In this document: positions 1,392 through 28,992 of the stretch, in pieces
Position numbering within the stretch: position 1 is the stretch's first letter
Layout of the letters: every line of letters begins with the position of its first letter
Source of the DNA: Candidatus Latescibacterota bacterium
Lineage (GTDB): Bacteria > Latescibacterota > UBA2968
Length of the DNA: 64,000 nt
NCBI GenBank assembly: GCA_965205975.1
Contig: OZ242195.1
Location: forward strand, 1,120,001 to 1,184,000
Direction of reading: 5' to 3'
Translations under genes and position numbers: made by a program
The notes under the pieces: generated by a model
The model's input: the letters and a program-made list of their open reading frames with translations, nothing else
Told to the model about the DNA's origin: nothing
Database searches by the model: none

Positions 1392-1420
1392 TTGCATAAA
1401 TCACTGTTTTTGTGTATATT
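1392..1420 (+). promoter_or_regulatory. sigma70-like promoter for tnpB, probably a leaderless transcript
   Basis: TTGCAT-17 bp-TATATT; ATG lies 6 nt after the -10 box with no RBS. Confidence 0.55.
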
Positions 1421-1426
1421 TATACT

Positions 1427-2533
1427 ATGGAATACTTAACATACAAATACAAAATGTATAGTCGCTGTGATCGCAATATGTATATCCATAGGGATATAGA
1501 TTCTTTTGCTGAGGTGTATAATCATTTCATTGCCTTGCACAAGCGATACTATCGGCGTTTTGGTAAATATCCGAGTAAGTTCACAATGATTAACCATTTG
1601 GCAAAGCTAAAAAGAACAACACGCTTTGCACATTGGCGTTTGTTGCCGTCACAGGCATTGCAAAATGTGGTTGAGCGCATAGACTTTGGCTATCAGAAAT
1701 TCTTTGCCAGAGACAACAAGCGTCCGCCCACATTCAGGTCTCGCTTTCGGTATCAGTCTTATACGCTGAAGCAAACAGGATATAAATTCCTTGAGCGTAA
1801 CAAGGTGCGTATTGGCAAGCGTATATTCAGATACCATAAGAGCAGAAAGTTCGATGTCGAGCGTATCAAGATGGTCACAATCAAACGTGACCGCGTAGGC
1901 GATTTGTGGCTATGTGTTGTTGCAAAGGCTGAGGGTATCAAGTCATTCATGATCAAGAACGGTAAAACCGCAGGTTTTGATTTTGGCTTGCAAACATATC
2001 TAACAGCCTCAGACAGCACAAGGACACAATCGCCATTGTTCTTCAATCGTAATTCGAGGAAAGTCAAAAAGGCTAATCGCAATCTTTCTCGTAAAAAGAA
2101 AGGGAGCAACAATCGTCACAGGGCAAGCGTAAATCATGCCAGAGTGCATAGGCGCGTTGCGAATCAGCGTAGAGACTATCACTGGCGACTTGCCTATCAA
2201 CTGTGTAAAGACTATGACGTTATGTTCTTTGAGACTTTGAACATTGACGCCATGAAACAGTTGTGGGGCAGAAAGATTAGCGATTTGGGCTTTTCAAACT
2301 TCTTGTCCATACTCAAGTATGTGGCAAAAAAGACGGGCAAAGTTGTCAAACAAATCGACAAATGGCTACCCACGTCAAAGACATGCTCGGCTTGTGATAC
2401 AGTGAAAGAGGACCTCGAATTGCGAGAGAGAACATTCCATTGTTGCGCGTGTGGTCTTGAGATAGACAGAGACCTCAACGCGGCGACAAACATTCACAGG
2501 TGGGGGCGTCCACCTATGGCGGAGGTAGCGTAA
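1427..2533 (+). CDS. tnpB: RNA-guided endonuclease TnpB
   Basis: N-terminal TYKYKMY/VYNHFIAL, RuvC GFDFG (D), FETLN (E), DRDLNAA (D), zinc ribbon CSAC...CCAC. Confidence 0.95.
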   Translation: MEYLTYKYKMYSRCDRNMYIHRDIDSFAEVYNHFIALHKRYYRRFGKYPSKFTMINHLAKLKRTTRFAHWRLLPSQALQNVVERIDFGYQKFFARDNKRPPTFRSRFRYQSYTLKQTGYKFLERNKVRIGKRIFRYHKSRKFDVERIKMVTIKRDRVGDLWLCVVAKAEGIKSFMIKNGKTAGFDFGLQTYLTASDSTRTQSPLFFNRNSRKVKKANRNLSRKKKGSNNRHRASVNHARVHRRVANQRRDYHWRLAYQLCKDYDVMFFETLNIDAMKQLWGRKISDLGFSNFLSILKYVAKKTGKVVKQIDKWLPTSKTCSACDTVKEDLELRERTFHCCACGLEIDRDLNAATNIHRWGRPPMAEVA

Positions 2534-24400: not shown

Positions 24401-26383
24401 TTATCTGCCCGGCAGATTTTTTGCACGGTTCACGAGATGATGGACATCCATGTATGGTTCGGGGGCTGTGGACCTCCAGACGACCTCGCCGGTCGCATCC
24501 AGCAGGACTGTGCCGTGCGCTGGGCCGGTGTGGGCCATTCCAAACCAGCCTGCCCATTTGCCAGAAGTGTCTGAGACCAGGCTCGACGACAGCGCAGCAA
24601 CTCTCTCCTGGTCTGGATCGGATTCTGGCGTGATGATCACCAGATTGATGTCGTTCTCCCGAAGCACCTCGTCGAACAAACGCGCGTGCTCGTAACAATG
24701 CCCGCATTGAACGCCAGTGATGAATGTGACGACGGTCGTCTTGCCAGTGATCAAGCTGAGTTGCTCTGGCTCTTCCACAACCAGGAACTGTCCCATCATC
24801 CCGTTGTCTTCGTGTTCCAGGATGTGGCAGTGGTACATGTATGGTACCTGAGGATCAGCATATCGATCGAAGGCCATGATGATCCGAACGAGATCACCTG
24901 GAGGCACCAGGACTGTGTCTTTCCAGCCGAGGTCGGCACTGGTGGATGGTTGGCCGTTGCGGTCGAGAATTTGAAACTGGACCGGATGGAGGTGGAAAGG
25001 GTGCGGCTGACCGCCGCGATTATGTACTTCCCAAATCTCAATGTCTCCCAATCGCACGACCTCATCAATTCTCTCCATGTCCATTGTCTTGCCGTTGATC
25101 GGTGGTCCCCCTCGACCTCCTCGACCTCTTCGACCTCCCCGTCCCCCTCGTCCTCCTTGTCCTCGTTCGCCTTGTAGAGCCGCCAGATTCCGGGTGATGC
25201 GTTGTTGTATGTTTTGTAGTCGTCCCCCTCGTTCCCCTCGACCACCTTGTCGGAGTCCAGCCAAAACCATCGGACGGGTTTTGGCGGCGAGTGAGGGATC
25301 GATGCGGGAGATGGTGTTGAGGCGCTCTGGCAGTGCGTGAGATGCGCGTTTTGCTGGCTGGGGAACGATTTTCAACAATTGCAGGTTCCCCGTGCCGATT
25401 CCCCATAAAAACGATATAATCGTTCTCCGCAATCCTGCTTCTGGGTAGCTTTTCAACACCACCTCAGCACCGTCGCTGAAGTCAACCAGGATTTCGGCTC
25501 GCTCGCCGGGTGCGAGGATCACGCGGTTGGTTTTGAGGGGCGTCTCGAGGAATCCGCCATCTGTGGCGATCTGATGAAACTCTCGGTTATCGTCAAAGCC
25601 GATGTAGTAGATACGCGCATTCGAGCCGTTTAACAGTCTGAATCGAATGCGACGCGACTCAACCTGGAGAAATGGATTATAGGTTCCATTGATCAGCATG
25701 GTGTTTCCAAAGACAGCACCCTGGTTGCGGGCAAAGCGAAACGCACCATCGTTGTCAAACAGTCGGTCCTGGAGCACGAGTGGAATGTCGTCAACGCCGT
25801 AGGTCTTTGGCAGGTCCAGCGCATCACTGTTATCGTCATCGATCCACATGAGGCCAGCGACCCCCCGATAGACCTGCCGTCCCGTATTGCCATGCGGATG
25901 CGGGTGGTACCATAACGGAGCAGCCTGTTGATCGACCGGAAAGCTGGCAGTCCACGATACTCCAGGCTCAATTTTCTGATGTGGTGTGCCGTCCATGCGA
26001 GCGGGAACGTGCATTCCGTGCCAGTGCATTGTCGTTATTTCATCCAGGTTGTTCTGGACGATCAGATCGACATCTTCGCCCCGACGCAGTCGCAGTGTCG
26101 GTCCCAGAAACGGTCCGTTAACGCCAGCTGTCGGTGTTTGTTTGCCTGGCAAGAACTCTCGGCTTCCTTCAGCAACGGTCAGGTGAAACTGCCGACGTCC
26201 ATCCACAACGGTTCCAAATAACTGTTCGGGAATCAGCAGTTTATTCTCAAAGGTCAACCCACTGTTTGTGGCCCGGATGAACAACAGCCAGTAGCAGGTC
26301 ACGCCCAATAACAGTACGATAATCAACAGTTCGATTGTGATTGGCTTCAGCCGTCGGGACCTGGTCGCTGTATCTGCAGGCAT
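24401..26383 (-). CDS. three-domain multicopper oxidase with an RG-rich insert and a C-terminal thioredoxin-like domain
   Basis: HWHG, WYHPH, HPFHLH, HCHILEHEDNGMM copper motifs; N-terminal TM segment; C-terminal CGHC. Confidence 0.9.
   Translation of the reverse strand: MPADTATRSRRLKPITIELLIIVLLLGVTCYWLLFIRATNSGLTFENKLLIPEQLFGTVVDGRRQFHLTVAEGSREFLPGKQTPTAGVNGPFLGPTLRLRRGEDVDLIVQNNLDEITTMHWHGMHVPARMDGTPHQKIEPGVSWTASFPVDQQAAPLWYHPHPHGNTGRQVYRGVAGLMWIDDDNSDALDLPKTYGVDDIPLVLQDRLFDNDGAFRFARNQGAVFGNTMLINGTYNPFLQVESRRIRFRLLNGSNARIYYIGFDDNREFHQIATDGGFLETPLKTNRVILAPGERAEILVDFSDGAEVVLKSYPEAGLRRTIISFLWGIGTGNLQLLKIVPQPAKRASHALPERLNTISRIDPSLAAKTRPMVLAGLRQGGRGERGGRLQNIQQRITRNLAALQGERGQGGRGGRGGRRGRGGRGGPPINGKTMDMERIDEVVRLGDIEIWEVHNRGGQPHPFHLHPVQFQILDRNGQPSTSADLGWKDTVLVPPGDLVRIIMAFDRYADPQVPYMYHCHILEHEDNGMMGQFLVVEEPEQLSLITGKTTVVTFITGVQCGHCYEHARLFDEVLRENDINLVIITPESDPDQERVAALSSSLVSDTSGKWAGWFGMAHTGPAHGTVLLDATGEVVWRSTAPEPYMDVHHLVNRAKNLPGR
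25108..25245. repeat. low-complexity (CCTCGACCT)-type repeats encoding a Gly/Arg-rich loop
   Basis: cctcgacctcctcgacctcttcgacctccccgtccccctcgtcctcc; protein QGGRGGRGGRRGRGGRGG. Confidence 0.75.
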
Positions 26384-27422: not shown

Positions 27423-27552
27423 GAGAATTTCCTCCTGAAAAATAATGTTAATGAAGATCCTTTTCTGGGAATCTATCTCGTTTAAGCTCGGCCAATATAA
27501 GACATTTTCCCGGGGATTGAAAATCTGAATGATGGCTTGCGATTTCTTTCAC

Positions 27553-27983
27553 TTTCCTGTAGGAAGCCCCGTCCTTTGGGCGTGGTCAGAGATAGTTGGC
27601 TTTGCCGTTAAGCCGTTTTGTGGGTATATTTCGCAGGTGCTATCGTAGCGCACACAAAGGCACTCTCTTTTGAGAGTAAACGGTTTCGGTGTGGGATAGC
27701 ACACAAAATCCTCTCTGTGATGTTAGTTGAGAGGCAGATTTGGCAACAACAGCGGTATGGATTGCGGTTGTGTTGTCGTCAAATCTGATGGGCACAGTTA
27801 GGGGCCTGACCTCCCAAACCTGCGGTAGCAATCCGCTGCTGTCAACTGCCCTGAAGTCTCGCCACGCAGTGAGCGGTTTAAACCTAAGCCCTTGCTCGGA
27901 TATGCTGCATTGCCTCCAATGGGTGGGTCAAGCACCTGGGGTGTGGCAGGGACAAGCCACCTGCTCAGCAGGTGGTGGTTGAC
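27553..27983 (+). mobile_element. non-autonomous ORF-less IS200/IS605-derived element
   Basis: Inserted 3' of TCAC. Left end GAAG + hairpin CCCCGTCC-TTT-GGGCGTGG. Right end CAAG + CCACCTGC-TCA-GCAGGTGG + TGGTTGAC. Removing it restores the host reading frame. Confidence 0.85.
27602..27630 (+). promoter_or_regulatory. sigma70-like promoter inside the element
   Basis: TTGCCG-17 bp-TATATT, same architecture as the tnpB promoter at 1392-1420. Confidence 0.55.
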
Positions 27984-28000
27984 ATCGTTCTGACTATCCG
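27637..28000 (+). ncRNA. predicted structured RNA: 5' hairpin domains + TnpB omegaRNA-like scaffold + flank-derived guide
   Basis: Stems GTGCTATC/GATAGCAC, ACTCTC/GAGAGT, CCTCTC/GAGAGG, CAGATTTG/CAAATCTG; GTCAAC (27841) is complementary to terminal GTTGAC (27978). Confidence 0.55.
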
Positions 28001-28992
28001 GAGTTGTATCGGCATGATGAAAATCATCCTGCCAAAGCCTTAAAGCCCTATCAGAGCTACATAGATAATCCCCTTTATATGCCATATGATCGCATCCATA
28101 ACGCGGTCAATAACTATGATTATTATGGCAGTATTACTGCGGTGGATGAGCAATTGGGGCGGGTTTTGGATTGGCTCGATAACCAGCCTGAAAGTGTTCG
28201 GGATAATACCATTGTCATCTATACGTCCGACCATGGTGCGATGGGTGGTGCTCAGAATGTTGCAGGAGGGCAAAAGAGATGGCCGCATGACCCTTCATCG
28301 AGAATACCATTTCTCGTGCGTTGGCATAAGGGTATTGACACTCCCGGGCGGGAAGCGGATGAACTCTTCTCATTCATTGATTTCTTTCCGACCTTTTGTC
28401 ATTTGGCAGGATTAGACGAAATGTTGGCAAAAAAAAATGATAGAGAAAGCCTGGAGTCTTTAGGCTACTTAAAAGCCAGTCCTGGTGTGAATCACAGTAG
28501 AAATATTATGGCAGAATCAGGCGGACCTGATCCAGATTCTGTATTTTTATTTCATTTTAGCAATATGAATTCCATATCGAGTCCTTGTCCTATTCACCGA
28601 ACCGTTGTGACAAAGGACTGGGCATATAGTGTCAAGGGGAAAACACGCCTGGGGGGGAAACCGAATTGGACAGTGTGGGACGAACCCGGCGGTTGGCTGT
28701 ACGACCGAGGCAAAGATCCGTTTCAGTTGGACAATTTGTTTTTCAATGAGAATTTTGAAGCCATTCGCACAGAGCTTCATCCTTTATTACAAAACTGGAT
28801 GAAAGAGGCAGAACTTCCATTTAGAAATAGGTGGTTTGAGAAAACGACCCGGAAAAATATCGAAGCGTGGTCATCTGAATGTGGTATTCTCTCTGAAGAC
28901 GAAGAAGCGATGAGAACACAGGGCCAGTCGTACGTCATGAATGTATGAATGTGTTCATTAAAAAAATGATCTCACACATTGGAGGAAGTGAC

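What the first reader, a model, noticed from the sequence alone, without database searches (positions are those of the whole stretch)
27549..28000. ORF-less IS605-type element carrying its own promoter, a ~200-nt structured RNA cargo and an omegaRNA-like scaffold
Seen: a 431-bp element (27553-27983) with no credible ORF. Both ends fit the IS608 guide/cleavage pairing rule. Left guide GAAG predicts TCxC and the flank is TCAC; right guide CAAG predicts TGxC and the end is TGAC. Excision gives TCAC|ATCG and restores an open sulfatase frame (..GLRFLSHRSDYPELY..), so the insertion is clean. Inside, TTGCCG-17-TATATT points at 27637, where stacked stems begin: GTGCTATC/GATAGCAC enclosing CACAC/GTGTG and ACTCTC-TTTT-GAGAGT, then CCTCTC/GAGAGG, CAGATTTG/CAAATCTG and GCGG/CCGC. 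These lead into GCTGCTGTCAACTGCCCTGAAGTCTCG, which reads AAVNCPEVS like a tnpB 3' end, and a GTCAAC...GTTGAC-closed scaffold. Known: TnpB omegaRNAs derive from the right end and use the 3' flank as guide. Inference: tnpB has been replaced by a folded RNA module rather than merely deleted. This would be a mobile RNA-only parasite that borrows TnpA and TnpB in trans, with a guide (ATCGTTCTGACTATCC..) and TAM (TCAC) matching the empty site. I do not recognise the 5' RNA domains.
Basis: partly seen in the sequence, partly recalled or inferred. Interest (0 to 1): 0.78.

Follow-up and report, generated by a model that had tools for sequence, protein, structure and literature searches.

The report
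Protein-free transposon carrying enlarged guide RNA
A small jumping element in sponge-associated bacteria has lost its nuclease gene but still makes a folded RNA that keeps the nuclease's guide scaffold and, most likely, a regulatory hairpin from inside the lost gene, which offers a natural test of how guide-only parasites compete for a borrowed enzyme.

Summary
The 431-bp ORF-less IS605-type element is real and mobile: 3 copies in this genome, 13 in 8 of 21 congeners (Ca. Latescibacterota), target TTCAC in 11 of 12 full copies. It encodes a plus-strand, covarying ~350-nt RNA with three pseudoknots, seen in 4 of 4 metatranscriptomes laid; one contig ends 17 nt past the right end in poly(A). 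Its 3' half is homologous to the omegaRNA of a co-resident AmaTnpB-like TnpB with the same target. Two first-reader claims fail. The insertion is not clean: about 770 bp of the sulfatase gene is deleted. The 5' 'cargo' is probably not foreign: its conserved core maps to a stem-loop inside the tnpB ORF, around the RuvC-II glutamate, where synonymous sites are frozen and where Nety et al. 2023 found an mRNA region that inhibits AmaTnpB. A second lineage in another family keeps the same core and architecture. Standalone omegaRNAs are known; keeping this ORF-internal element, the extra kissing loops and a 16-nt antisense to tnpB were not found in ten literature searches. Best reading: a guide-only parasite using the retained hairpin to capture TnpB in trans; a TnpB sponge is the main rival. 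Binding and cleavage are untested.

The parts
27548..27552 (+). Target pentamer TTCAC (TnpA cleavage site; predicted TnpB TAM). At this copy it is the upstream, promoter-region site left after a deletion
27553..27983 (+). ORF-less IS605-family element, 431 bp
27563..27585 (+). Left end: 4-nt DNA guide (27563-27566) and subterminal hairpin (27567-27585), shared with tnpB-only elements and a tnpA-only IS200 of the genus
27602..27630 (+). Putative promoter; -10 (27625-27630) conserved in place, -35 assignment not conserved
27637..27702 (+). Domain A: outer stem, internal loop and hairpin; core strands 27656-27663 and 27678-27688 map to the stem-loop inside the tnpB ORF (codons about 249-281)
27710..27734 (+). 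Domain B hairpin with conserved loop
27735..27787 (+). Domain C long hairpin; its tip (27761-27765) pairs with the loop of hairpin E (27828-27832), pseudoknot 1
   Evidence: same contact covaries in type II
27790..27851 (+). Nexus-like helix (27790-27794 with 27847-27851) enclosing hairpins D and E; D loop (27807-27811) pairs with 27926-27930, pseudoknot 2
27841..27983 (+). omegaRNA core; 27841-27846 pairs with 27978-27983 (canonical TnpB pseudoknot)
27886..27901 (+). 16 nt exactly complementary to the 3' end of the three cognate tnpB copies in this genome
27953..27983 (+). Right end: DNA guide 27953-27956, hairpin 27957-27975, cleavage motif 27980-27983
27984..28000 (+). Predicted RNA guide (about 17 nt of flank); matches the intact sulfatase allele of relatives
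   Evidence: guide length from another copy's transcript
27984..28948 (+). 3' remnant of a sulfatase gene whose 5' part (about 250 codons, with start and active-site motif) is deleted

Best explanation
A non-autonomous IS605 derivative of an AmaTnpB-like tnpB element that lost the protein but kept the RNA parts that engage TnpB. Shown: it moves to TCAC-ending sites with exact IS605 ends; it is transcribed; the RNA folds on the plus strand; its 3' half is the family omegaRNA. Strongly indicated: domain A descends from a conserved stem-loop inside the tnpB ORF that straddles the RuvC-II glutamate codon, the region reported to inhibit AmaTnpB. Inferred: that stem-loop is a TnpB-binding or loading signal in the native mRNA; the RNA-only element, which cannot make TnpB in cis, keeps it to capture TnpB made by other elements, is trimmed at its 5' end to a guide RNP, and cuts empty TTCAC-plus-flank alleles so that recombination restores the element. 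Domains B-E and two extra kissing loops stabilise and orient the protein-free RNA. TnpA is borrowed from an IS200 with the same end hairpin.
For: Ends, target and copy number. Fold: plus strand -99.8 against -74.3 kcal/mol for minus; 14 of 79 pairs change on both sides, 99.2% of cells pair. Expression in 4 of 4 runs laid, one contig spanning 27653-27983 plus 17 nt and an A-tail. A model of the 3' half finds the native omegaRNAs of the two same-scaffold tnpB copies in this genome (E about 1e-8); the intact one has target TTCAC and all three RuvC residues. In 37 family genes codons 274-277 are synonymously frozen (P about 0.003) and codons 249-281 form the best-folding window outside the 3' end, with one pair covarying 27 A-U / 9 C-G / 1 U-A. 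Domain A cores align best to that stretch in 265 of 407 core-gene pairs, against 129 of 1221 for shuffled cores and 27 of 555 for other parts of the RNA. A second ORF-less lineage in another family keeps the core and architecture. Nety 2023 (PMC10278001) reports inhibition by this mRNA region supplied as a separate RNA.
Against: No binding, processing or cleavage data. The cognate TnpB is not enriched with the element: 5 of 8 carriers against 8 of 13 non-carriers; two single-contig carriers (G010, G020) have none. No Y1 transposase in this genome. Each homology test of domain A alone is weak: nhmmer E 0.12-0.29 in 3 of 8 elements, joint model E 0.6 on one gene, 2 of 6 cores scored best elsewhere, one core placed in only 6 of 37 genes. 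The published effect of the region is inhibition, not loading. Covariation rests on about three lineages of type I and three sequences of type II. RNA evidence is from contigs, which show neither strand nor 5' end; the A-tailed contig is single, depth 3.8.
Confidence: 0.5

Rival explanations
1. TnpB sponge or antagonist: the abundant RNA binds TnpB through domain A and the omegaRNA core but is a poor guide, and in type I also pairs with the tnpB mRNA 3' end, damping nuclease activity from competing elements (selfish or host-beneficial).
For: The homologous mRNA region inhibits AmaTnpB in trans; a 16-18-nt antisense run to 16 of 23 family 3' ends, null 6-11 nt, covering the native 5' hairpin and nexus; a copy without its left end is kept at 99%.
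Against: Right end, canonical pseudoknot and a guide-length 3' end are all kept; type II has no antisense (8-11 nt); co-folding gain of -9.5 kcal/mol lies within random controls (-5 to -22), and a control tnpB family gives a similar best duplex.
Confidence: 0.2
2. Ordinary standalone omegaRNA (PATE) whose 5' domains only protect an untranslated transcript from decay and are trimmed off; domain A survives as any stable hairpin would.
For: Standalone omegaRNAs acting in trans are known; the 5' region of the ISDra2 omegaRNA is dispensable; domain C keeps shape while sequence drifts (18 of 53 invariant).
Against: Unpaired or weakly paired core letters of domain A are kept across two families while most of the ORF is gone; 5' and 3' halves are joined by covarying contacts.
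Confidence: 0.17
3. One reading: tnpB was replaced by an unrelated RNA module with its own function, carried as cargo.
For: Domains B-E have no detectable match to tnpB DNA, to Rfam or to 15 tnpA/tnpB loci; the RNA persists where no cognate TnpB was found.
Against: The module was never found outside these elements in 151 genomes; its core maps to tnpB; it is interlocked with the omegaRNA.
Confidence: 0.09
4. A self-splicing or self-cleaving RNA (IStron-like) that hides the insertion or matures its own 5' end.
For: Compact, multiply pseudoknotted fold; IStrons join a group I intron to IS605 ends.
Against: No group I or ribozyme match at E up to 5-10; the element ends in C; no spliced joint in four RNA runs; most copies are not in intact genes.
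Confidence: 0.04

Closest known systems
PATE-like elements and standalone omegaRNAs (Meers et al., bioRxiv 10.1101/2023.03.14.532601; Altae-Tran et al., PMC10691335; passages read)
   Same: IS200/IS605 ends, no protein gene, omegaRNA at the right end, dependence on TnpA and TnpB in trans; the second paper calls their biological role unknown.
   Different: Here the RNA is about 350 nt (typical scaffolds 150-200 nt, PMC13639567 passage), has two extra pseudoknots, an ORF-derived domain, and in type I an antisense stretch to tnpB.
AmaTnpB and its mRNA inhibitory region (Nety et al. 2023, PMC10278001; Results part 1, passages and supplementary table S1 read)
   Same: TAM TCAC; by eye the same protein family and the same codons and stem strands next to RuvC-II as the ORF element found here.
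   Different: There the region lies in the mRNA and was proposed to pair with the omegaRNA; here a shortened form is fused to the omegaRNA in a protein-free element, and folding shows no special pairing of domain A with the omegaRNA, favouring a structure over antisense.
ISDra2 TnpB omegaRNA (Nakagawa et al., PMC10097598; passages read)
   Same: 3'-terminal pseudoknot stacked on a 5' stem, right-end hairpin, 16-nt flank guide.
   Different: Its 5' extension is disordered and dispensable; here the 5' part is conserved and covaries.
IStrons (bioRxiv 10.1101/2023.11.20.567912; passages read)
   Same: A large structured RNA inside IS605/IS607 ends, overlapping an omegaRNA.
   Different: No group I core, no terminal G, no sign of splicing.

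Membership tests
IS200/IS605 non-autonomous element (PATE) | Subterminal hairpins with DNA guides matching the cleavage motifs, no target duplication | tested here: met
   the same left hairpin goes with three guide/target pairs that change together; the pairing rule itself is recalled
IS200/IS605 non-autonomous element (PATE) | Copies at unrelated sites 3' of a fixed tetra/pentanucleotide | tested here: met
   12 full copies at 9 sites, TTCAC 11, ATCAC 1; empty alleles with the pentamer
IS200/IS605 non-autonomous element (PATE) | No tnpA or tnpB ORF | tested here: met
   (best translated match E 0.017 in 37 proteins, judged chance)
IS200/IS605 non-autonomous element (PATE) | Mobilised by TnpA in trans | not testable with these tools
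   Candidate IS200 with the same hairpin in 1 of 9 tnpA loci examined; none in this genome
TnpB omegaRNA (standalone) | Scaffold homologous to a TnpB omegaRNA with nexus and 3' pseudoknot | tested here: met
   the pseudoknot differs on both sides between type I and type II
TnpB omegaRNA (standalone) | Transcript ending about 16 nt into the 3' flank | tested here: inconclusive
   One contig with 17 nt and an A-tail; two others run 119 and 228 nt into flanks
TnpB omegaRNA (standalone) | Compatible TnpB in the same genome | tested here: inconclusive
   Present here and in 5 of 8 carriers, not found in G010 and G020
TnpB omegaRNA (standalone) | Guides TAM-dependent cleavage | not testable with these tools
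   Needs biochemistry
AmaTnpB mRNA inhibitory region | Position next to RuvC-II and shared sequence/structure | tested here: met
   For the family ORF element: and by eye. For domain A: 265 of 407 placements, single tests weak
AmaTnpB mRNA inhibitory region | Inhibits TnpB DNA cleavage | not testable with these tools
   Needs biochemistry
IStron / group I intron | Group I catalytic core and terminal G | tested here: not met
   element ends in C
IscB omegaRNA / HEARO | Minus-strand RNA starting at the right end, HEARO model match | tested here: not met
   Minus-strand fold weaker, no Rfam match

The most novel reading that the evidence does not exclude
tnpB mRNAs of the AmaTnpB family carry a second TnpB-binding RNA element inside the ORF, and a class of RNA-only transposons has fused it to the omegaRNA in a self-folding 350-450-nt RNA that captures TnpB from other elements while, in one lineage, base-pairing with the donor's mRNA to unfold its own guide: a guide-RNA hijacker.
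Probability: 0.3. Interest if true: 0.88.

Novelty: new variant of a known kind. Interest (0 to 1): 0.7.

Why it matters
Two open points meet here: what standalone omegaRNAs do, and whether the inhibitory region of AmaTnpB mRNA is conserved and how it acts. Protein-free elements work as natural deletion scans: they show which RNA parts of a tnpB element selection keeps once coding is gone. They point to a conserved stem-loop around the RuvC-II codon as a functional RNA element, give covarying alignments for mutagenesis, and suggest either a natural RNA inhibitor or a loading enhancer for a compact genome-editing nuclease family. The locus also shows these elements deleting flanking host DNA between two target sites.

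Tried and rejected
Rfam: nothing near threshold for type I, its divergent variant or type II. Minus-strand IscB/HEARO reading rejected. Pattern scans: viral contigs 0 hits and 3 chance hits; metagenome contigs 3 chance hits; GTDB 16 hits, 14 real and all Ca. Latescibacterota, 2 chance; plasmids none. A wider scan of viral contigs for the domain A core was not completed, so its range outside this phylum is open. Reading hairpins D/E as decayed zinc-finger codons looked plausible by eye but had no profile support and type II differs there; left open. Antisense action in trans got no thermodynamic support. Domain A pairing with the omegaRNA got none. Co-occurrence with cognate TnpB showed no enrichment. 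No self-target in this genome. Lack of RNA cover on the window's flanks is not used as evidence, since other strains carry the element elsewhere. In one search the inner stem of C and the outer three pairs of the first stem were dropped because MAFFT misaligned them; one core was mis-sliced and was redone. Earlier scan notes held nothing on this element.

Full report
1. The element. Bases 27553-27983 recur twice more in this 5.56-Mb single-contig genome at 99% identity, once full length and once without the first 29 nt. Across the genus, 8 of 21 genomes carry it: 12 full copies of 429-455 bp at 98-99%, 88-90% and 69-70% identity, at 9 distinct sites, all ending at the same bases. The flank is TTCAC in 11 and ATCAC in 1. 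Record titles from a GTDB scan name the host group as Ca. Latescibacterota. The same left hairpin occurs on tnpB-only elements that follow TTCAT and on a tnpA-only IS200 with a third target; the four bases before the hairpin change in step with the target, as the IS608 rule (recalled) predicts. No Y1 transposase was found in this genome; of 9 tnpA loci examined in the genus only that IS200 shares the hairpin.

2. The insertion is not clean. Eleven relatives hold the orthologous right flank; all show the target pentamer at the junction but a different left flank, and three that were translated give intact 560-567-codon frames. This genome's left flank matches DNA 762-808 bp further upstream in 9 of 10 tested, ending at a second site that reads TTCAC in 4 of them. 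The 5' part of the sulfatase is therefore deleted between two target sites, by intramolecular transposition or by recombination between two insertions (inference). The truncated third copy also has a left-side deletion; 2 of 13 relatives show its empty site with TTCAC. The second copy shows no length change in the 6 of 13 relatives with a left-flank match, but none has the pentamer there.

3. The RNA. The plus strand from 27630 folds with z -2.9, and the alignment folds far better on plus than on minus. A structure of 14 helices and 79 pairs is kept in 99.2% of cells, with 14 pairs changed on both sides, above all 500 shuffles and all slid controls; I chose the helices from these sequences, dropped two misaligned parts, and there are only about three lineages, so this overstates. 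Three pseudoknots stand out: C tip with E loop (1 of 5 pairs covaries), D loop with 27926-27930 (2 of 5), and the canonical 27841-27846 with the 3' end (invariant in type I). The first two tie the 5' part to the omegaRNA. A -10 hexamer keeps its place 6-7 nt before the first stem in 12 of 12 copies; the proposed -35 does not.

4. Expression. Nineteen runs hold part of the stretch, 12 on record as RNA. Four metatranscriptomes from four studies were laid as contigs, and all four cover the interior. One contig runs 27653-27983, then 17 nt of another copy's flank, then an A-tail; one covers 27678-27941; in a third, interior unitigs have depth about 40 each against 4 for the left-end unitig, but two contigs run 119 and 228 nt past the right end. 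Contigs show no strand or start and DNA can be present, so this is good evidence of presence and a single hint of a guide-length 3' end.

5. The partner nuclease. This genome has eight TnpB matches. Three belong to one family; a model of the element's 3' half finds the omegaRNAs of two of them at E about 1e-8. The intact one follows TTCAC and keeps D, E and D; read by eye, 16 of 26 family loci in the genus follow TCAC, 5 TTCAT, 5 are unclear. Its closest solved relatives are Cas12f1 proteins. Against a tight link: the family is in 5 of 8 carriers and 8 of 13 non-carriers, and was not found in two single-contig carriers.

6. Where the 5' module comes from. A model of domains A-C matched only these elements in 151 phylum genomes. 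The 3' model led to a second ORF-less lineage (type II, 544-576 bp, target TTCAT) in another family: three copies in G139 and one in G126, a further one in G133 found by a joint model and a partial one. It has a different left end but the same plan, z -3.4, 27 of 104 pairs covarying in three sequences, the C-E contact covarying and the terminal pseudoknot changed on both sides. The most conserved piece is the core of domain A. The type I model also touched a tnpB ORF at that core (E 0.25). In 37 family genes from both genera, codons 274-277 use almost one codon each (shares 0.96-1.0, mean 0.66; 13 of 178 columns reach 0.95; run P about 0.003), as do 250, 252, 254 and 264. Codons 249-281 give a consensus fold of -11.5 kcal/mol against 0 to -5.2 elsewhere, apart from the 3' end, with one pair covarying even within one genus (4 A-U, 9 C-G, 1 U-A); its inner helix uses the same pairs as domain A. 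Eleven domain A cores align best to nt 740-850 of the genes in 265 of 407 pairs (range 6 to 35 of 37), against 129 of 1221 for shuffled cores and 27 of 555 for other parts. The pairs are not independent, and single tests are weak. In the elements the two strands are joined with the middle, including the catalytic glutamate codon, removed. Domains B-E show no profile match to tnpB; their origin is open.

7. Antisense stretch. Bases 27886-27901 are the exact complement of the 3' end of all three cognate tnpB copies, the stretch that forms the native 5' hairpin and nexus. Runs of 16-18 nt are found against 16 of 23 family ends for this copy (null 6-11); four of six lineages keep 14-18 nt, one 12, one is broken by a wobble-compatible change. 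It is not chance, but it may be an old inverted duplication kept for a cis hairpin: co-folding is no better than controls and type II lacks it.

8. Literature. ORF-less IS605 elements that encode omegaRNAs used in trans are known (10.1101/2023.03.14.532601, passages; PMC10691335, passages). Nety et al. 2023 (PMC10278001; abstract, introduction, part of methods, first part of results, passages and table S1 with long cells cut; figures S1-S5 could not be read and may show which shorter fragments inhibit) report that AmaTnpB, TAM TCAC, trims the 5' end of its mRNA, and that nt 825-875 next to RuvC-II, or a 125-nt fragment, inhibit cleavage when added as a separate RNA; they leave its conservation open. 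By eye that fragment has the codons and both stem strands of the element found here; this comparison was not computed. ISDra2 structure passages (PMC10097598), IStron passages (10.1101/2023.11.20.567912) and two reviews (PMC13565253, PMC13639567, passages) describe nothing like it. Ten searches found no report of a standalone omegaRNA that keeps an ORF-internal element; the library lacks most subscription papers.

9. Verdict. A real, mobile, expressed RNA-only IS605 derivative; a new variant of the standalone omegaRNA/PATE kind. Its interest is that it appears to keep a tnpB mRNA element linked to nuclease regulation. I favour capture of TnpB in trans (0.5) over a sponge (0.2), a merely stabilised ordinary guide (0.17), foreign cargo (0.09) or a ribozyme (0.04). 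Interest 0.7.

Noticed in passing
L289, L292 (G143), L293 (G126), L263 (G145): A third ORF-less IS605-ended family, about 450-540 bp, with its own conserved RNA and a different terminal pseudoknot; its ends resemble the more distant tnpB element of L259. No domain A core was seen.
   Followed up: partly
L031 (G016) and L014 (G020): Two variants only 72% alike sit at the same site while the right flanks are 93% alike: independent insertion or replacement at one site.
   Followed up: partly
L288 (G138:C1 about 3451964-3452357): A 390-bp element with a decayed piece of tnpB coding sequence followed by a type II 3' end: a possible intermediate.
   Followed up: no
G000:C1 near 3068190, 4766350, 1221000: Three solo copies of the left-end hairpin flanked by A and T runs, like the right end of the IS200 in L146; possible footprints now serving as terminators.
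   Followed up: no
window about 1400-2530, plus strand: An intact tnpB of another family, without tnpA here; relatives carry it in autonomous IS605 elements.
   Followed up: no
G000:C1 936914-937728: Cognate-family tnpB with an internal deletion but intact ends and omegaRNA.
   Followed up: partly
run X12 laid on window 27674-27958: More divergent variants exist in RNA: one skips 27703-27787, others carry a different domain A hairpin or a right-end hairpin like that of the tnpB elements.
   Followed up: no
L237, L249, L250 (G035), L238 (G015) and G000:C1 near 1575271: A short right-end-like hairpin repeat with no tnpB upstream.
   Followed up: no
window 24401-26383, minus strand: 660-aa ORF that looks like a multicopper oxidase with a glycine/arginine-rich insert and a C-terminal redoxin-like part (label recalled from the translation, not checked).
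   Followed up: no
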